A stretch of DNA of 55,035 nucleotides, counting the filler, from Sphacelaria rigidula (Eukaryota): assembly GCA_964200075.2 (NCBI GenBank). It is 6 parts of 6 records of this genome, joined end to end, with 100 filler letters (N's around TTAATTAATTAA, not from the genome) between each part and the next. Parts side by side here need not be neighbours in the genome. Positions count along the whole stretch, not along the records: positions 45,948 to 55,035 come from CAXNAA020009334.1; 5 more parts are not named here. One strand, 5' to 3'. The notes under the pieces were generated by a model that was not told the origin of the DNA, ran no database searches, and saw nothing but the letters and a program-made list of their open reading frames with translations. Shown piece after piece: positions 14,701 to 52,640 of this stretch. Within the stretch, counting starts at the first letter, position 1. The number at the start of each line of letters is the position of its first letter. Position numbers and translations under genes: made by a program.

Positions 14701-15092
14701 ATCGCGAAAAGTATGGCCAAGAATTATAAAATGTAGCATGATATGTGGCCATAGCAGACTTACAATCACCGCTCCTCGTTTTCTCGCGGTTTTACTGTCC
14801 GCGCTGTAGGGATGACCCAGAATACGCGGATGCTGTTCGCATCGAAAACACACTGGGCATTGCGGTCGTGAGGCATGAGGCCAAGAAGCCGGGAGGAATC
14901 GAAGATGTGCTGGCGTTTTTTGCTGAGAAGGATCCAGACGTACGATTAGATGAGCTGTGTTTCGTTGGAGACCGATTACTGACAGATGTGGTTTTCGGCA
15001 ACCTGCATGGCATGCTCACCATCCACACTCAGCCCTTGACATTGGAGGGCGACAATCGGCCTGCAGCCATTTTCCGCTTCTTGGAGCGCAAG
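11786..15092 (+). CDS. GEP4: Phosphatidylglycerophosphate phosphatase, HAD IIIA GEP4/YqeG family (4 exons resolved; last exon and any N-terminal extension unresolved)
   Basis: Exons 11786-11829, 12124-12235, 13414-13535 and 14810-15092 splice in frame: MGQSFNAQAVASMGRIARHPALAVPHVSV...GVVFDKDNTLTAPY...IMSNSAGTRDDPEY...VVRHEAKKPGG...CFVGDRLLTDVVFGNLHG. HAD motifs DxD, SNS, KP and GDRxxTD are all present. Confidence 0.9.
12724..12808 (+). repeat. tRNA-derived sequence (SINE head or tRNA pseudogene) in intron
   Basis: A-box-like TGGTGGGTGTAATGG, B-box GGTTCGATTCC, CTCC/GGAG acceptor-like pairing and a T-run. Anticodon arm non-canonical. Confidence 0.6.
14290..14626 (-). mobile_element. tRNA-headed SINE-like element (body type 1)
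   Basis: Minus-strand head with B-box GAGTTCGATCC. Body CACCTTCCTTCTGC..CCCTCGTC shared with 17157-17430 and partly 53380-53452. (CA)n-like tail. Confidence 0.75.
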
Positions 15093-17156
15093 GTGACCGG
15101 AAGCCCCACATGCGAGGCAAACAGAGTCGTGTCGCTCCTTTTGGTCATGCTCCAGAACATTCTCTCGTGCACCTCTATTCACGGCATGTATTAATTTTGC
15201 CCTATTTACTGTTGGTGTCTTGCTCTTGCAGAACCCATGGCTGGGAATTCCATCACTGATATTGTGGCTCCCAGATAGCTAAGTATGTCACCTGCTTCCA
15301 CTGACTCCTTGCGGGAAGTGTTGCGATCGGGGCCTGCCGTTTTTTTTTTTTCCTTCTTGGCTCTGTACTACTATTACTTCATTCTGTGCCTTCTCTTCTA
15401 TCTTCTCCCTTTCCGTGGCGTAATGTTGGCGCGTACCGTTCATTGACCTCGGATACGTCTATCTCGTGACGACAGCTGGATCATCAGGGAATCAGTTAGT
15501 GCTAACGTGCGACGAGCAATCCATTATTCAACCTTGTCAACAAAATAAAGGTAATTTCATGTATTTGATTAATTGGTCGGTTGTCGCGCTTCCACTGATT
15601 CTTGAGTCATCCATCCGTGGTCACATCATATACGTACCCAAGGTGAAGAGAACGGAAACGGTAACTCGCTAAAGGAAAACTCTGGAGATGATGGGGGGGG
15701 GGGGGGGGGGGGGGGCGGATCCATTTGTTGTTGGGCTTTTTTTTTTCCCCTTTGCACACCGATCCCTTTCGGGGGGGNNNNNNNNNNGAACATCAGGAGT
15801 GTGGTGTGGGGGGGGGTGGAGTCGGAGTGCGTACTCATGTGTTGCTTGCCTTAGTCATTTGACCATTGACCACGCATCCCTTTCGAGACGGAGCAACTAG
15901 CGGAGGAAACTAAGCAAAAAATTGAGACAAAACAAAACATGAAAAAATGAAAAGCATGAAAGATGTACGTGTGTACAGCAGGCGCATTCGCGTGCACTTT
16001 GCTGATGCTGCTCTAGAAGATATGCAGAGTATTGCTGTTTTGCACAGCGTATAGACAACATGTCCTTGCACCAGGGTGCTCGAATTGTGGTTGGGCTTCG
16101 ACGAGCTCCCCATCTTCCCATCGTCTTCACTGCGTTTCTGCCGTCCTAGCGCGTCCGAGATTTGCCTCTCGCCAGGTCGCGTACTTACGAAGTTCTGGTA
16201 TGGTCTCGCGGACGCTACCAGGTGCCAGGCGTTTGTATGGCAAAACGTGGCCATCCATTGCGTGCCTCTTCGTCGCATCACCTTCGACTGTCAGCGAATC
16301 CCAATGAACTTCGCTCCGTCTGCTCCGCCGTTCGTACTTCGCAGGTTTTCTTGGAGTTCCTGCAGCCTAGATTTTCTGTTGAGCCCGAGGCCCACAGGTT
16401 GTGTCCGGAAGGAGCTGCGACTTTGATTCGATCGAGCAAAAGTACAACAGAAGAGCCCTTAGCCAGCCCAAGACCCTGAGAAACATGTTGCTTCGTTGTA
16501 TCGTGTTTGCCAATGTTTCAAGTGAAGCTTTGGGCTTTACGCGTGAGTCATGGTCGACGTGCGTGACCGTCCCATGTGCCTACGGTGTCCATGAAATTAT
16601 TCGGTTGGCGTCTTTTTTCCGGCGATAGTGGTGCTGTGGTCATAGACTACCGTCCTTCGGGGCTGTGTTTTCATGTTCGTCGGCGTATCGCTGACTTTTC
16701 CCCTTGTACTCTGGCATTTTGTCCCAATAGCTTTGTGACCACGGGTACTAGATTTCTGGACAAGGGCCCACTTGAAAAACAAAAAGTCTGCTGTGTCGCT
16801 GGAGTTTAGAACGGTGCGCTTGACATGAAAATGGTGCGTTTGATTTGTTGTGTGCGTGTAAATGGAGGGTGTGAGCTGTCTTGACAAGGCGCGAAATGTA
16901 CATATGGTACGCGGTACCACGAGCCTCTATGTATGATGAACAACTGTTGGTCACAAAGGATATTCTGAAGCCACGTGAGCGTTTTGCACGTTTCGACGTT
17001 GCTGTTGTAAACCGCCTACACCGATGATACCCTGTAGAACCGGACGCCGTGTAAGTTGCTTTACGCTGGCGAATCAGTGCGGGTGCATTCGTTGACCCCA
17101 ATCGCGTACAACGCATTTTCGCATGTACGGTTTCTCCACGTCCCGGTAATGTGTTG

Positions 17157-28823: not shown

Positions 28824-30105
28824 CGAGGGCAGGTCGAGCAGAGCATACTCAATACTCAGTATTTTCCAAGAGTCATACTTTTAGTGCTCAAATGTCTAAA
28901 GAGTATTTTAGGTCGTACTTAATCTACTCAAAATGTTGAGTATTGAGGTCATACTCAAGTGGTACTCTATACTCGAGTATTACTGAGAGTGCTTACTCAA
29001 TATTTGAGTAAAGTAGTTGACGTCGTACTCCATCTACTCAAAGTTTGAGTAGAGTATTTGAGGCCATGCTCGACCTACTCAGAATTTGAGTAGAGTATTT
29101 GAGGCCGTACTCGACCTACTCAGAATTTGAGTAAAGTATTGAAGGTCGTACTCGATCTACTGAAAAAATGAGTAGAGATTTGAGGCCATACTCGATCAAC
29201 TCAAAGTTTGAGTAGAGTATTTGAGGTCGTACTCGACCTACTCAAACTTCGAGTGGAGTATTTGAGGCCGTACTCGACCTACTCAAAATTCGAGTTGAGC
29301 ATTTGCGGTCATATACCCAATCTACCCGAAAGTTGGGTAGCGTATCTGAGGCTGGACCCGATGTACCGAAAGCCTATAACTTCAACTTCAGTATTCAAGT
29401 TCGTACGCAAGATACTCAAACTTGGGTAGGGGAAATACCGAGGTTTTCCCAGAGTTGCCCACCCATGGTTAGTGCTGATTCAAGATCGAACTTCAGCAAA
29501 CATTCGGATACAGTATATTCGGGAAAGCATTTGGATCAGAACCACATGGTACAAGATTAGGGTAGCATGAATATTGGGGTATTGTCAAAAGGCGTTCGGA
29601 TTGAACCGTAAACTTGCTGCACGGCGCCAGCATATCGAATGCGTTGCGAGGTATCGAGTATGTACTGCCGTGGGTGGGGGCTGGTAGGATGGGGCGCTGA
29701 GGCAGGTAGGTTCACTGTTCATTCACCCGACGCTTTTTCATTTTTTGATGGCCATCGTTCGCCCATGTATTCGACAGCCTGTGAAGTGACTTCACGAAGT
29801 CGCCGACAGTCACGGGTACTCATGATACCCAAGTGATACTCTATACTCAAGTATTACCGAGAGTCCTTACTCAAAAATTGAGCAGAGTATTAGAGGTCGT
29901 ACTCGATCTACTCAAAATTGAAGTAAAGTATGTGAGACCGCGTACTCGACCTACTCAAAATTTGAGTAGAGTATTGAGGTCATACTCAAGTGATACTCTA
30001 TACTCAAGTATTACTGAGAGTGCTTACTCAATATTTGAGTAGAGTAAATACTCGAGTATTTTACTCAAGTAGTCAAAAGTACATACTCTACTCGACCTGC
30101 CCTTG
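28824..30105. mobile_element. hAT-type non-autonomous element with 41-bp subterminal tandem arrays
   Basis: TIR CGAGGGCAGGTCGAG / CTCGACCTGCCCTTG. Perfect 8-bp TSD GAACGATA (28816-28823 / 30106-30113). Unit TACTCGACCTACTCAGAATTTGAGTAGAGTATTTGAGGCCG. Confidence 0.88.
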
Positions 30106-34200: not shown

Positions 34201-34565
34201 CAAGTGCAGGTCGAGTAGAGTATAATCAATACTCGTTATTTTCGAAAAGTCATACGTTTAGTACCCACAATTCAAGTAAAGCACTTGAGGTCGTACTCAA
34301 TCTGCCCAAAATTGAACTAGAGTATTTGAGGTCTTACTCAATCTACTCAAAATCTGAGTAGAGTACTGGGGGTCGTACTCAATCTGCCCAAACTTTGAGT
34401 ATAGTATTTGAGGTCGTACTCAATCTACCCAAATTTTAACTAGAGTATTTAAGGCCGTACCCAATCTACTCAAACTTTGAGTAGAGTGAATACTTTGAGT
34501 AGAGTGAATACTGGGGTTTCTTACCCGGGTATACAAAAGTACATACTTTACTCGACCTGCCCTTG
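34201..34565. mobile_element. Short copy of the hAT-type 41-bp-array element
   Basis: CAAGTGCAGGTCGAG...CTCGACCTGCCCTTG. Degenerate TSD CTTGTTCA / CTTGTTTG. Same 41-bp units. Confidence 0.85.
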
Positions 34566-46556: not shown

Positions 46557-48469
46557 ACGTGCCCCACAGGGTGCTATTTGTCCACGTGTGCTGTCAACGT
46601 TCGAGGGGCTTGATAAAAGAAACAGCCATGCACAGGCGCACCCGAGAAAGCGGCAGAGCGGTTCCCCTACTAATACATCCTAGACTCTGCAGATTAAACA
46701 CCGTTGCCTCAGAGCTAAACAGCAACAAGTCCATGCTAGACTCCAACAATAGGGCATGCGACGCAATCTGCTATGCACAACTAGTTTTCACATGCCCTCC
46801 GCTTGGTGCCATTTCAACGAGTATTGTTGAACTCAAGCATGCAGGACTAAAACGCAACGAGCAGCTTTTCCGAGCTGTTGCAGCTGCTGTGGAAAAGAGA
46901 ATACCTTCCCATCTTGCGACAACAAATATTTTCGGTGACGCCCAGCAGTCAGTCAAACGCGAGCACCCCAAACGCAGCGATGGGCGCGGGTGCGGGGTAG
47001 TCTGGACCAACATGTTACACCTGCGCTTCTGCTCGCAACCTGCCCCGCACCATGCCATGCCGTTCGTGATCGGTGCGCCAACGCTGTTGTCTTACTGTAC
47101 GCTGAGCGACGTTTACAGGTTGCTCAACCTACGCCCCTTGTCCCAAAAGGTAGGATAAGCACATATGTACGGGCACTTGACCGTGTGGGCTTCTTTTCTT
47201 CATTTTCTTTTCTTACATATTTGCAGTGTTTTCAGTTAAACTCCACTCTTTCTTCGACGCACGTCCGTTCCCACCATGCGACCGAACGGCTGAAACATTT
47301 CGAGTTCGCCCGAAATCGGTCGTATTTTGCCCGATTACGGGATGCTCACAAGCATCAGAAAAAACGAACAAAGGTAGCCGTCCTCGTCATCACTGGGGTT
47401 AGATGCTGAACACTGTACTCCTGAGCGCTTTCGAAGCCCTCCTCCTCGTACTTTCCCACCCCCTCCAGCGTCCCCGTCCTCGTCGGCAATCTAACCCTGG
47501 TATGCCCTTACGTACTTTCTCCTACTCGATACTCCATAAACAAGACTCAGCAAAACGCAAAATGAGGGATATATTGACGGCACGTTTTGTAAGTAAATGC
47601 AGCATCGTCTGCGCCATGACTCCCTTATGAAGCCGGCTATAGCATCGTCAGCATCTCCGTTAGGGAGATATGATCTGCATTCCACAGGTCACCTGACTTA
47701 TGGGAAAGAGAAAATAAACTACAAATAAAACGACAATTGCCCTGCTGACGAGCACTGCAAAATGAACCCCATGTGGGCAACTCACAACGAAAATTTGACG
47801 GAACATCGTGCGCTCACAGAAGAAGCTCCGGCACGTGGAAATTTGTCAACCGCACGGTGGCGGCGCAATATACAGTTCCACCTCATACAACGAGTGAACA
47901 ACGAGTGAGCATGTGCGTACATGAACATGGGGGGGGCATAATGTCGACAGCCACAGTGCCGAAGAAAGTGTTGTGCGGTTGGAAAATTCCGTGCATATTT
48001 CCTCCGCGGCTTCTTCCTCTACAGCGGGAATTTTCGGCGACCATGTAATCCGCGAAGCGAAAGATTACTCGCTATTGCTGGCGTCATCTTCAACATGAGG
48101 TTGTTTCGACCAATCAAAGCAACCGGTCGTTGTTTTCGGCCAATCCGAAAATGTGTGCTACTTCGTTCAAATTATCTTTGGCGAATAATAATCCGGATAA
48201 TCTCTCCCCCAAGGAAAAAACAGTTATGACATCAAAACTCAAGCGGTGACGCCGTCTATGCTCGACAGTCCTTCCGCTCCTTTGGGACGTGGATGACGTC
48301 AGCCCTCGACCAAGTAATGTAGACCAAACAAAATACAAGAGTTTCATATTTGATCAATCAAGAAACTGCGTGCCATTTCTCTCAGCTCAAAACCGTGAAT
48401 TGCCCATGGTTGCGATAGAGATTCACTTCAACATCGGGGGACGTTTCGGCAATAAATACCACACCGCCC

Positions 48470-48728
48470 GTGAATGGGGTCTTTCTAAAAGCCTTGCCTG
48501 AACGTCAGCTCCTGCAGCGAGGCAGACCACGCAAGCCGCAAAAGAAGCTGGTCGCCTTCCCACCTAAACATGAGTCATAGCACGGAGGCAGGTGACGCCA
48601 CCTCTGAAACGGTTAAACAATACCTCTTCAGGTCTGAGCAACTGCAACGAAGCAGACAAAGTTACCCTCTCCATCAAGTTACTGCATGATTCATATCTCA
48701 GACAGAGTTGCCGCAGGGAGGCAGGCCA
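48470..48728 (-). pseudogene. Decayed FNIP repeats beyond the stop codon
   Basis: TGA is followed in frame by WPASLRQLCL.. and later SASLQLL and WSASLQELTF. Confidence 0.7.
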
Positions 48729-50432
48729 TCACATCTTCTCAACGGGTTGGTTGAACATTAATCCAACTGCGAGCTCACGTACTGAAGTGGGCCATGCCAT
48801 CCCTTCAACTAGCTGGTTGATGTTGCTGCCAAAAATGAGCTTTTGCAGAGAGACAGGCCACTCCACTCTCTGAATGGGCTGATTGAAAAGCATCCCAAAA
48901 GTTAGCCCCCGCAGCGCTGGAGGCCATTGCACCTCCTCAATGGGCTGGTCAAAGCACTTCCCAAACGTGAGAAACTGTAGCGAAGCAGGCCACGTAGCAC
49001 CCTCAACAGCTTGGTTGAAGTTCTTCCCGAAGCTGAGCTGTTGCAGGGAGGCAGGCCACGCCACTCCCTCAATGGGCTTATTAAAACGCTGACCGAATTC
49101 GAGATGCTGCAGCGAAGCAGGCCACTGCACCCCCTCAATGGGCTGATTGAAATGACTCCCTAGAAGGAGATACTGCAGCGAGGCGGGCCACTCAACAAAC
49201 TCAATGGGGTGGTCGAAGCCACCGCAGAATTGTAGACGCAGCAGTAAAGCGGGCCACCGAACTCCCTCAATGGGATGATTGAAGTCAAACCCGAAGTCGA
49301 TACGATGCAGCGAGGAAGGCCATTCTACCTCATTGATGGGCTGATCGAAACATACCCCGAGGTTTAGACGCTTCAGCGACGCCGGCCACGCTACCCTCTC
49401 GATAGGTTGGTCGAAATCACCCATAAATGTTATAATTCTAAGGTGGGAAGGCCAGACCACCTCTGCAATGGGCTGGTTGAAGCTCTGCCCGAGAAAGAGA
49501 TGCTGTAGTGAGGAAGGCCACACCACTCCTTCGATTGGATGGTTGAAGCGAAAAAAGCGGATGTGCTGCAGCGAGATGGGCCATACCACGTGCTCGATGG
49601 GCTGGTCGAACTTCCCATCGAACGAGATTTCCTGCAGTGATGCAGGCCAAGCAACCCGTTCGATAGGCTGATCGAAACGTTCCCCGAATTCTAGACCCTT
49701 CAGCGAAGCCGGCCACGCTACCCTCTCAATAGGTTGGTTGAAATCCCCACGGAACTCGAGACGTTGAAGGTGGGAAGGCCAGACCACCTCCGCAATGGGC
49801 TGATTGAATTGCCCCCAAAACGTAATGTGCTGTAGTGAGAGAGGCCACACCACCCCCTCAATTGAACGATTGAATGACGCCAAGAAACCAATGTGCTTCA
49901 GCGACGTGGGCCATATTACCCGCTCGATGGGCTGGTCGAAGTCACCATGGAACGAGAGTTCCTGTAATGATGGAGGCCACACCACCCGCTCAATGGGCTG
50001 ATTGAACTTCGGGCGTTTTCCATGTGCGCCCAAAAATGCAATCAGTTGAACTCCCTGCGGCCATACCACATGATCCAAACTGCGATTGAAGTCGGGCGAA
50101 AATTCCACATGTTTCACGTTAGACAAGACGTCGTTCTCGCTACACATGAAGTGCGCGGGAGCACTCCCCATACACGTCACGGCACGTGCCCGCAACAAAG
50201 GCACACGACTCACAGCCGTGGAGGCTTCCTCGACAGGGGTCGCCCATAGCCGTTTCGGTGTGCCTCTCCCCACTTTCACGTGCAGGGTGCTGACAAAACG
50301 GCAAGCCAGGCAGAACTGTAGCGACGCCAGCTGCAAGTTCTTGGTTGACACGTACGGGTGTTGTCCGGAGCAAGCCTGGTTGAGAGCGATGGTGATCACG
50401 TCGAGACACAGATCGCGGCCTGGAAGGAGCAA
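48729..50432 (-). CDS. FNIP-repeat (LRR-like, 22-aa) protein with 20 tandem repeats; true start unresolved
   Basis: 567-codon ORF. Consensus F(N/D)QPIExVxWPxSLQxLxFGxx with 20 WP motifs after a non-repeat N-terminus of about 105 aa. No in-frame ATG at the 5' end before an upstream stop, so an upstream exon or a lesion is implied. Confidence 0.92.
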   Translation of the reverse strand: MLLPGRDLCLDVITIALNQACSGQHPYVSTKNLQLASLQFCLACRFVSTLHVKVGRGTPKRLWATPVEEASTAVSRVPLLRARAVTCMGSAPAHFMCSENDVLSNVKHVEFSPDFNRSLDHVVWPQGVQLIAFLGAHGKRPKFNQPIERVVWPPSLQELSFHGDFDQPIERVIWPTSLKHIGFLASFNRSIEGVVWPLSLQHITFWGQFNQPIAEVVWPSHLQRLEFRGDFNQPIERVAWPASLKGLEFGERFDQPIERVAWPASLQEISFDGKFDQPIEHVVWPISLQHIRFFRFNHPIEGVVWPSSLQHLFLGQSFNQPIAEVVWPSHLRIITFMGDFDQPIERVAWPASLKRLNLGVCFDQPINEVEWPSSLHRIDFGFDFNHPIEGVRWPALLLRLQFCGGFDHPIEFVEWPASLQYLLLGSHFNQPIEGVQWPASLQHLEFGQRFNKPIEGVAWPASLQQLSFGKNFNQAVEGATWPASLQFLTFGKCFDQPIEEVQWPPALRGLTFGMLFNQPIQRVEWPVSLQKLIFGSNINQLVEGMAWPTSVRELAVGLMFNQPVEKM

Positions 50433-51280
50433 GCAAACGGCAATGGTGTGGTCAGTGCACTCGTGGCGATTCGTGTTCTGTTGCTCGGCGATCGCATGGT
50501 ATTACCGGCAATCACTCAACAGATAGACGGGAGTTGGATACCGCGCAAGCTTGGAAACGGCAAAATAAGCGCCCAGCGGGAAAACGCACAGATTGCTACG
50601 GTGGTCATTGGGGCAATGTCTTGACTGAAGGTTGGGACCTGCTCATCTGATTGACGAGAAGAAATACTTTTCCTAGTGGACCTGTGATTAGCGGGCCCCT
50701 GAATTCCCGAAGTACACGTGCTTTTTTTCATGAGAGACTTTCAGGAAATAAATAAAAAATAAAATAACAGACAATTCTATTAGATGGGTATGTTCATTGT
50801 GAACTGTTCCACAGTTGCTGTGGGTGCGATCCATGCTCCTCCTCGCTTTCCTGAGTTCTGGTGCGGCATTTCACACCACCCTAGGTGGTGCCGGCATGGT
50901 TCGATTGCGTGTGCTAGTAGTGGAGAAAGAGGAAGAATACAATTATGCCATAATTTTTCCTCCTCTTGACATCCTCCGAGGGGGCGGGGGCGGTATTTTG
51001 TTGCTTGCCTTAGTCGTTTTACTCGACACGCATCCCTTACGAAAGATAATACCGTCACAACTCCTAATAGAGATACCTCCAACATTTGGGTGCTCATTAC
51101 GTTGTCCCATACATTACACAGAAACTCTTGCACATCTTTTCCTCTCCCTGTTTTTCGCCGTCTGTGGCTCTCTGTAATGCGTGAAAGGACTGCGTGCTTA
51201 GAGGACCGCGCCGTAGTTCAAAACACCTCAGGATCGATGATTTTCAAAACCAATCGGGCCAGTCCCTGCAGGTACCACGC

Positions 51281-51316
51281 CCCTAACCATAACCCCAACC
51301 CTAACCCTAACCCTAA
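51281..51316. repeat. Interstitial telomere-like (CCCTAA)n
   Basis: CCCTAA CCATAA CCCCAA CCCTAA CCCTAA CCCTAA. Confidence 0.8.
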
Positions 51317-51379
51317 CCATGGGGATGTTCAAATTCCGATGCGGTCCTCTAAGCGCGCGGTCCTCTCACGCATTACACT

Positions 51380-52640
51380 CTCTATCTCTTACGATAGTGG
51401 TCGTATTTCCGTTCCTATCTTTGCACCAAACTTTCTCATGTCACATTCGTTCAGTTCCCTCATCTCTTCCAACACGTCCCCTTTCTCCCTGTATAGTTCA
51501 CACCTTCCCACTACTTGAGTGCTACTCTTTGTACTCAGCAACACAGGCGATTATGTTAATATTTCCCCCACTTCACCTGCTCCGTCTCGAAAGAGATGCG
51601 TGGCCAATGGTCAAACGACGAAGGCAAGCAACAAATGAGTACGCCACCCCTCCCTCCCCCCGCCCCCTCCACCCGTCTACGCCAAGGCATGGATACTGAT
51701 CCTCGATCGGTAATTCATCCTCTCCTCACTTCCCTGTGAATTTTACCGGGTTTTACTTATCTTCGCTGCATTCCACCACTGCGCACTCGTCTATGTCCAT
51801 TGTCTCTCTCCATTTCCTAGCGTATTCCAGTTCTTTCCTTGGTCATGCAATCTTTCCGGTCTTCCTGATATGTCCCCCACGAAATCATCCGCAAATATCG
51901 ATTTTTCCGACCCTGTATCTCAACCCACCGCAACTCCTTGCATTACTGCTTCTGCTACTGCGTTTGTCGTGTCATTGATGAATACCTTCAATATAGTGGG
52001 TGATGAGGTATACCTTCGTGCAACTCCTTGTGAGGTATCAACATATTTTGACTTTTTCCCATCCAGTATCATCGCACTTCTCGCACATTCTGTCATCTCT
52101 TTCAGCATTCTCCACATCGCTCCTCTGATTCGAGTTCCCTCTATCGTTTTCCACAGCCCATTTTCCATAATATGTCGTGGGCCTTCTGTTTGTCTGGAAA
52201 TAAACAATCGATGTTAGCCCCGCGTATTTTCTATCTTGAATAATCTTGCCCAACGTGTACACATGGTCTACGCAGCTACGGTTCAGTCTACTCCCTGCTT
52301 ACCCTTCGTTGATTTTGGTCCCTTCTTCATCATTGTTATAATTCTATCTTACGAAGTCTCACAGGGTCCATTGCCTACGGTACTCAGTAGTGTTATCCCC
52401 GAAACATTTCCCGGGTCAGTCTTGTCTCCTTTCTCGAGAAGGTGTACTGCAACTCCCTCTCTTCACGTCTTGGATGCGTACTCATCTTCTCGGATTCAAT
52501 CATACAACGTGGCCATCATGATAACTACCCCATTTCCCTCGTACTTCATGAATTCACCCACTCCTTTGTCTGCCCTGCTGCCTTTCCTCCTTCACGTTTA
52601 GCTAAGCACTCCTTTACTTCCACCGTCATGAGCTATGGTG
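51380..52640 (-). mobile_element. Decayed LINE reverse transcriptase, related to 10740-11560
   Basis: KGDKTDPGN..GITLLSTVG, VYTLGKIIQDRK, GLWK..IRGAMWRMLKEM, SQGVARRYTSSPTILKVFIND, IFADDF. Frameshifts, an internal deletion and an insertion. Confidence 0.88.

What the first reader, a model, noticed from the sequence alone, without database searches (positions are those of the whole stretch)
49330..49880. FNIP array shows alternating near-identical and hypervariable blocks: candidate diversifying recognition receptor
Seen: an internal duplication at 327-bp offset (five repeats). Scaffold blocks are almost identical: 49371 CTTCAGCGACGCCGGCCACGCTACCCTCTCGATAGGTTGGTCGAAATC vs 49698 CTTCAGCGAAGCCGGCCACGCTACCCTCTCAATAGGTTGGTTGAAATC, and 49443 vs 49770. 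The roughly 20 nt between them are barely alignable (RIITFMG vs QRLEFRG; HLFLGQS vs HITFWGQ; RLNLGVC vs GLEFGER). Known: in LRR-type solenoids the xxLxLxx strand forms the ligand-binding concave face, and concentrated variation there typifies immune receptors. Inference: this could be a rapidly diversified binding surface (selection, gene conversion or repeat shuffling), possibly an under-described algal defence or recognition family.
Basis: partly seen in the sequence, partly recalled or inferred. Interest (0 to 1): 0.72.

Follow-up and report, generated by a model that had tools for sequence, protein, structure and literature searches.

The report
Hidden F-box on algal FNIP repeats
This stretch is part of one gene in a large brown-algal family of repeat proteins that vary most at three surface positions per repeat and likely carry an unrecognised F-box head, so they would pick out changing target proteins for destruction; this copy has a premature stop.

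Summary
The 327-bp offset is a true five-repeat duplication: a sister gene holds one copy of the block. Only 2 of 5 repeat pairs have near-identical scaffolds. The variable blocks are the concave beta-strand and the FGxxFN loop of a known FNIP (WP-class) LRR, where variability is already published.

The gene is one of at least 57 paralogs. Family-wide, positions 18, 21 and 22 show excess amino-acid change (omega about 2; about 1 if only first repeats are used). For this gene alone, selection cannot be separated from a locally raised silent rate. Two other samples carry the same array order, so there is no sign of fast shuffling.

New here: the conserved N-terminus is predicted to fold as three helices, and its structural neighbours are enriched for F-box domains (low Z; Pfam misses it). 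That points to SCF substrate receptors, the layout of giant-virus F-box-FNIP proteins. My literature searches did not find this stated for brown algae.

This copy stops inside its last repeat, and its first exon was not found. The scan noted the same variable di-residue before in giant-virus FNIP genes.

The parts
48729..50419 (-). Long coding exon: N-terminal module, cap repeat, 19 full FNIP repeats, partial 20th repeat, TGA stop
   Evidence: PF05725 E 1e-81; exon start inferred from the conserved acceptor
50420..50421 (-). Inferred phase-1 splice acceptor (AG after a pyrimidine tract), at the same place in nearly all paralogs shown
   Evidence: a matching ATG exon with a phase-1 donor lies about 550-660 nt upstream in 12 aligned paralogs but was not found for this copy
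50292..50417 (-). Predicted three-helix F-box-like module (residues 1-42)
   Evidence: model H3-19, H25-31, H33-41; F-box domains are 10 of the top 50 rows, Z 3.1-3.9; no Pfam F-box match
50007..50291 (-). Irregular LRR-like strands and a 28-residue cap repeat linking the head to the array
49677..50006 (-). Repeats 1-5, first copy of the duplicated block
49350..49676 (-). Repeats 6-10, second copy of the block; repeat 7 (49548-49610) has 21 residues, giving the 327-bp offset
48756..49349 (-). Repeats 11-19; repeats 14-19 are colinear with repeats 9-14 of the sister gene
48729..48731 (-). Premature TGA inside the last repeat; no other base is listed here in the two other samples that cover it
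   Evidence: X3 contig 48352-49108 with 0 other letters; X4 differences all lie elsewhere
48624..48728 (-). In-frame DNA after the stop that matches the C-terminal cap of the sister protein

Best explanation
The region is the middle of a brown-algal FNIP (FGxxFN, WP-class) leucine-rich-repeat gene whose conserved head is likely a divergent F-box, so the family would act as interchangeable substrate receptors of an SCF ubiquitin ligase, with the variable stripe likely being the target-binding surface. Shown: repeat class, family size, the five-repeat duplication, the site pattern and the premature stop. Predicted: fold of the head and position of the variable residues. Inferred: (1) the head docks on Skp1; (2) the solenoid core (F1, N2, P4, I5, V8, W10, P11, L14, L17, F19) is held by purifying selection, while positions 18, 21 and 22 are pushed to change, and in this gene and its sister also 16 and 20; (3) repeat gain, loss and conversion plus gene birth and death renew the repertoire over evolutionary time; (4) the targets are probably fast-changing, possibly foreign, proteins. 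The alternating pattern is what an old block duplication looks like under these two regimes, probably with some later homogenisation of repeats 4-5 and 9-10. This copy lacks its C-terminal cap and may be decaying.
For: Family. FNIP E 1e-81; CroV588 and CroV539 are the only 2 solved relatives; 57 of 65 scored candidates carry the N-terminal module; relatives with the same head are named from Ectocarpus, Scytosiphon, Pylaiella and Ascophyllum. F-box. Three helices. Among 48,161 chains, 10 of the top 50 rows are F-box domains aligned on the F-box itself (Skp2 twice, Cdc4, FBXL2, COI1, FBH1, 5ibk, FBXL5, FBXL17, TIR1), and 3 of the 4 rows that span the whole head are F-box-LRR proteins. All 6 rows shown from the Foldseek-ranked set are D3/MAX2 F-box-LRR. 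Viral structural neighbours of the repeats include F-box-FNIP proteins. The helices are more constrained than the rest of the head (omega 0.41 vs 0.60). The genome encodes Skp1. Selection. Omega is 1.9-2.1 at 18, 2.3-2.6 at 21 and 2.3-2.6 at 22 in 30 repeat pairs from 11 sister-gene pairs; bootstrap over gene pairs 1.3-3.2, 0 of 40 at or below 1. In 830 repeats the first two bases of codons 21 and 22 are near random (heterozygosity 0.66-0.73), while their silent third bases keep opposite biases (21: T 221 of 313; 22: C 283 of 360). Aromatic residues are 18% at 21/22 vs 1% at convex sites.
Against: F-box. Z is only 2.5-3.9, with unrelated helical bundles ranked as high or higher. No F-box Pfam family appears for 37 members or among the 25 of 41 families shown for 110 members. 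Profile comparison with 5 F-boxes from this genome gave nothing above shuffles (a thin profile). No LP motif is present and helix 1 is long. Selection. Using first repeats only, omega at 18/21/22 is 0.9-1.1. Orthology of repeats 2-3 is assumed from position. After correction for 22 positions, site 18 is not significant. For this gene vs its sister, omega drops from 2.1 to 1.1 when the variable block has its own silent rate. The head is loosely constrained (omega about 0.5), and 9 of 41 paralogs have a broken frame. No evidence on targets.
Confidence: 0.5

Rival explanations
1. The variable blocks are simply unconstrained surface positions in a redundant, partly decaying family. Short conversion tracts homogenise the scaffolds and make the contrast, and no selection for new binding is needed.
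For: First-repeat omega about 1. Silent change is raised in the variable block of this gene (17 of 38 same-residue codons differ vs 27 of 106 in scaffolds and 13 of 85 in the head). Copies 4/9 and 5/10 are closer to each other than to the sister gene, while copies 1-3 are not. 55 exact tracts of 45 nt or more between repeats within genes; 9 of 41 frames broken. Premature stop here.
Against: Family-wide silent divergence is even across the repeat (four-fold sites: 33 of 193 scaffold, 8 of 31, 4 of 23, 3 of 10). The first and second bases of codons 21/22 are more diverse than any silent site in the scaffold, while their own third bases keep the old bias. Conversion cannot spare two bases of a codon.
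Confidence: 0.25
2. The repeats are a selected binding surface, but the head is a plain N-terminal cap or another docking module, so the proteins bind or sequester targets without an SCF ligase.
For: No sequence-level F-box signal; low Z. CroV FGxxFN proteins have no enzymatic partner domain according to PMC9525666.
Against: F-box enrichment in two structure searches, with alignments running on from the helices into the first LRR strands.
Confidence: 0.2
3. A programmed process (cassette swapping, somatic shuffling or targeted hypermutation) rewrites the roughly 20-nt blocks, as in lamprey VLRs or as proposed for Ectocarpus ROCO exons.
For: The block of repeat 9 differs at 14 of 24 bases from repeat 4 between scaffolds that differ at 2 and 3 of 42.
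Against: No donor: best match 15 of 24 among 830 repeats and none in the genome search. Repeats are not separate exons. Samples X3 and X4 are colinear without gaps; X4 has 5 coding differences, 3 silent. Third bases in the hot codons are not randomised.
Confidence: 0.03

Closest known systems
FGxxFN/FNIP LRR proteins, CroV539 subclass (PDB 7ZAL; PMC9525666; Pfam PF05725)
   Same: 22-residue LxxLxFGxxFNQPIExVxWP repeat; variable positions 5, 8 and 9 (here 18, 21, 22). The paper counts 104 brown-algal sequences of the WP type and likens the repertoire to VLRs (passages).
   Different: Here a conserved head of about 135 residues precedes the array; this gene also varies strongly at 16 and 20; the passages I read give no selection analysis.
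Giant-virus F-box-FNIP proteins (Megavirus, Moumouvirus, Gaeavirus)
   Same: Same repeat family with an N-terminal F-box, proposed to select proteins for degradation.
   Different: Their F-box is annotated; the algal head is missed by Pfam and found no viral relative (no BFVD match under E 1.8). The gene is a host gene with an inferred intron.
F-box-LRR substrate receptors (Skp2, FBXL2/5/17, TIR1, COI1, MAX2/D3) and the unstable F-box families of Caenorhabditis
   Same: Predicted three helices followed by LRR strands; birth-death expansion with a constrained F-box and selected substrate domains, proposed to target foreign proteins (PMC8665587 passages).
   Different: Different LRR class; no sequence similarity detected; Skp1 binding unknown.
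Brown-algal ROCO-LRR and NB-ARC-TPR candidate immune receptors (PMC3341825, PMC11378527)
   Same: Large families with positively selected concave-face repeat sites (passages).
   Different: Those have one repeat per exon, exon shuffling and a GTPase or NB-ARC domain. Here the array lies in one exon. Neither paper's main text holds the words FNIP or F-box.

Membership tests
FNIP/FGxxFN LRR (WP subclass) | Pfam PF05725 over its cut-off and 22-residue period | tested here: met
   269 bits vs cut-off 21; period 66 nt
FNIP/FGxxFN LRR (WP subclass) | LxxLxFGxxFNQPIExVxWP motif and fold like CroV539/588 | tested here: met
   Foldseek E 4.5e-7; Z 15.6, rmsd 2.3, 157 aligned
F-box proteins | Sequence match to an F-box profile | tested here: not met
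   no F-box family for 37 members or among the 25 of 41 families shown for 110 members; hhalign to 5 own F-boxes at shuffle level
F-box proteins | Three-helix F-box fold N-terminal to a substrate-binding repeat domain | tested here: inconclusive
   three helices; F-box domains 10 of top 50 rows and 6 of 6 rows, but Z 2.5-3.9, rmsd 3.0-4.5
F-box proteins | Binding to Skp1 | tested here: inconclusive
   see Tried and rejected; needs a bench test
Diversifying LRR recognition receptors | Variable residues on the concave strand and its edge | tested here: met
   strand = positions 16-19 in the model; matches positions 5, 8, 9 of PMC9525666
Diversifying LRR recognition receptors | dN/dS above 1 at those sites | tested here: inconclusive
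   family 1.9-2.6 but 0.9-1.1 for first repeats only; this gene 0.8-2.1 by model
Diversifying LRR recognition receptors | Recognition of pathogen ligands or induction by infection | not testable with these tools
   no ligand or infection data
Exon-shuffling or somatically assembled receptors (ROCO-LRR, VLR) | One repeat per exon or donor cassettes, with array rearrangement between individuals | tested here: not met
   single-exon array; no donor; colinear in X3 and X4

The most novel reading that the evidence does not exclude
Brown algae took over the F-box-FNIP design of giant viruses and expanded it into an intracellular surveillance repertoire of dozens of SCF substrate receptors per genome, whose antibody-like variable stripe tracks virus or parasite proteins and sends them to the proteasome. 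The F-box has diverged beyond Pfam detection, which is why one of the larger brown-algal gene families has been left without a function.
Probability: 0.25. Interest if true: 0.8.

Novelty: new variant of a known kind. Interest (0 to 1): 0.48.

Why it matters
Brown algae carry about a hundred FNIP genes (121 in Saccharina, PMC4421812) with no assigned function, and their immune machinery is poorly known. A cryptic F-box gives the family a concrete, cheap test (Skp1 binding, then substrate trapping) and would add a ubiquitin-based, possibly virus-derived candidate immune family beside ROCO and NB-ARC-TPR.

Tried and rejected
Complex prediction of the head with an Ectocarpus Skp1 gave no verdict: score 0.03, alignments not used, partner fold uncertain. 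It is counted neither way.

Expression: no RNA holder was listed. Two runs guessed to be RNA each gave one short exact contig inside the array (232 nt at depth 2.1; 187 nt at depth 3.1) and none on the single-copy flanks; a third gave none. This is a weak hint only, and no splice joint was seen.

Searches with no useful result: word-based protein search with the head and with an own F-box; ESM Atlas, hits 0.80 or lower with low recognition; viral contigs, 20 pattern matches and none confirmed; BFVD with the head model, nothing under E 1.8. The first exon of this copy was not found by blastn, nhmmer or a donor scan; likeness to the sister gene ends at 50721, just before nested inverted-repeat elements.

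The triplet test on near-identical scaffolds gave pN 0.48-0.55 at 21/22 vs scaffold pS 0.17-0.25. I gave it little weight because such pairs need not be true sisters.

Retroposition and a mobile-element boundary were rejected: paralogs share 1-3 kb of upstream non-coding DNA with no common end. Local hypermutation was rejected.

Rows dropped: 2 of 13 gene pairs gave no usable repeats; loci with no recognisable head motif or with an atypical or broken head were left out of the pair analysis (35 kept of 59); the repeat pattern skips non-22-residue repeats.

Literature: searches showed no paper stating an F-box or a selection test for brown-algal FNIP genes. Subscription papers and all supplements were not seen; the Saccharina FNIP phylogeny is in a supplement I did not read.

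Full report
Observation. The interval lies in a minus-strand frame 48729-50501 with 19 full FNIP repeats. The 327-bp offset equals five repeats minus one codon. Over the five offset pairs, scaffold (codons 1-14) identity is 76, 86, 81, 95 and 93%, and variable-block (codons 15-22) identity is 79, 57, 42, 42 and 75%. The means over 171 pairs are 69% and 45%. So the duplication is beyond chance, but the sharp alternation holds well only around repeats 4/9. The closest paralog (L031, 83% identical in the head) has one copy of the block, and both window copies map onto it. Copies 1-3 are no closer to each other than to the sister, while copies 4-5 are, which suggests an old duplication with some later homogenisation (inference).

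Gene and family. The organism is a brown alga, inferred from its Skp1 exon (97% to brown-algal entries) and from named relatives. A search with the head found 57 matches among 65 scored candidates in the genome, a lower bound. I fetched 58 loci besides the window's own and extracted 830 regular repeats. Nearly all paralogs shown have an AG acceptor at the same place. Twelve aligned paralogs show an upstream ATG exon ending in a phase-1 donor. Paralogs share upstream non-coding DNA with ragged ends, so they spread by DNA duplication. Nine of 41 have two or more repeats beyond their first in-frame stop. The window copy has a TGA inside its last repeat, followed in frame by DNA matching the sister's C-terminal cap. 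Two other samples show no other base there. Its first exon was not found.

Where the variation sits. In the model of the head plus four repeats (pLDDT 79) the strand is positions 16-19. PMC9525666 (first sixth of the text and passages read) names repeat positions 5, 8 and 9, here 18, 21 and 22, as the variable concave-face and edge sites. It counts 104 brown-algal WP-type sequences and notes F-boxes on Megavirus members. In this genome 21 and 22 carry about 4 bits of entropy. The window gene is unusual in also departing from the family norm at 16, 18 and 20 (70% of sites, second highest of 45 genes).

Selection. Sister genes were paired by the head alone, and their first three repeats were compared by position (30 repeat pairs, 11 gene pairs). 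Omega was 1.9-2.1 at 18, 2.3-2.6 at 21 and 22, 1.5-1.6 at 7, 0.5 at 16 and 0.4 or less in the core. With a clock from the repeats alone the three sites gave 2.1, bootstrap 1.3-3.2; dropping three doubtful pairs gave 2.05; first repeats alone gave only 0.9-1.1. An independent argument: the first two bases of codons 21 and 22 are near random, while their silent third bases keep opposite biases as strong as scaffold sites. That fits repeated amino-acid-changing substitution better than block replacement or hypermutation. For the window gene against its sister, omega on the face is 2.1, 1.65 or 1.1 depending on whether silent rates are shared (1.8, 1.3 or 0.8 with the other copy), because silent change is also raised in its variable blocks. 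So selection is likely for the family and unproven for this gene. Sample X4 differs at 5 coding bases, 3 silent and 2 replacements at positions 15 and 18 (my reading of the places), with no gaps; this is too few to test.

The head. A profile of the head plus cap found relatives widely; 135 of the best 150 match the head itself. Modelled alone from 110 sequences (pLDDT 77, pTM 0.56) it has three helices followed by LRR-like strands. Against 48,161 solved chains no match passed Z 4.4, but 10 of the top 50 rows are F-box domains aligned on the F-box, and COI1, TIR1 and FBXL5 align across the whole head. Among 59 Foldseek-ranked chains, all 6 rows shown are MAX2/D3 F-box-LRR proteins, one family. 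By eye the conserved TxELQLASLxxCxxCR stretch resembles the second half of the five F-boxes printed. Against this, Pfam and a thin profile comparison gave no signal. I put the F-box reading at about two in three.

Mechanism. Most likely the proteins dock on Skp1 through the head and present a concave stripe that binds targets for ubiquitylation. Docking, targets and any defence role are inferred, not shown. The precedent is the unstable F-box families of Caenorhabditis (PMC8665587, passages) and viral F-box-FNIP proteins. Rivals are relaxed constraint with conversion, a binding protein without a ligase link, and programmed shuffling, the last unlikely.

Novelty. The family is known in brown algae (PMC4421812, one passage; bioRxiv 10.64898/2026.04.27.720984, section 8, which lists FNIP among the largest putatively virus-derived orthogroups). 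The two brown-algal immune-receptor papers do not mention FNIP or F-box in their main text, nor does a 2026 review of brown-algal viruses (PMC12993054, passages). The Denoeud preprint shows zero FNIP counts in a listing. My searches found no statement of an F-box head or of site-wise selection in this family; subscription papers and supplements were not seen. An earlier scan note on giant-virus FNIP genes reported the same variable di-residue; it is unchecked and not used as support. Verdict: an ordinary LRR pattern in a truncated copy, which leads to a testable new reading of the whole family.

Noticed in passing
window 50997-51635: Nested inverted-repeat elements upstream of the gene: outer arms 50997-51022 and 51610-51635, inner arms 51173-51218 and 51332-51377 around a CCCTAA array. 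The inner one is very high-copy in read depth. They lie where paralogs have their first coding exon.
   Followed up: partly
window 51900-52300 (-): Broken frames that look like a non-LTR reverse-transcriptase fragment (recalled resemblance; no Pfam match).
   Followed up: partly
window 28994-29313, 29868-29987, 34262-34487: Three arrays of one 41-bp satellite unit with internal inverted symmetry.
   Followed up: no
window 14742-15194 (+): Exon of a mitochondrial PGP-phosphatase-like gene (PF09419, E 2e-17).
   Followed up: no
window 48400-48620 (-): Likeness to the sister locus continues past the coding end and includes degenerate FNIP-like DNA, suggesting a 3' region made from lost repeats.
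   Followed up: no
repeat position 7 across the family: A convex-side position with omega about 1.5 (not significant) and as many replacements as 21/22 in sister pairs.
   Followed up: partly
P0063, P0073, P0095, P0126, P0147: FNIP arrays in database proteins together with EF-hand, AAA, ankyrin, DEAD-helicase or dynein domains; these may be real fusions or gene-model errors.
   Followed up: no
G000, F-box searches: Only 5 Pfam-detectable F-box-like matches were found in this genome (38 candidates scored), far fewer than the 57 FNIP heads; counts are lower bounds.
   Followed up: partly
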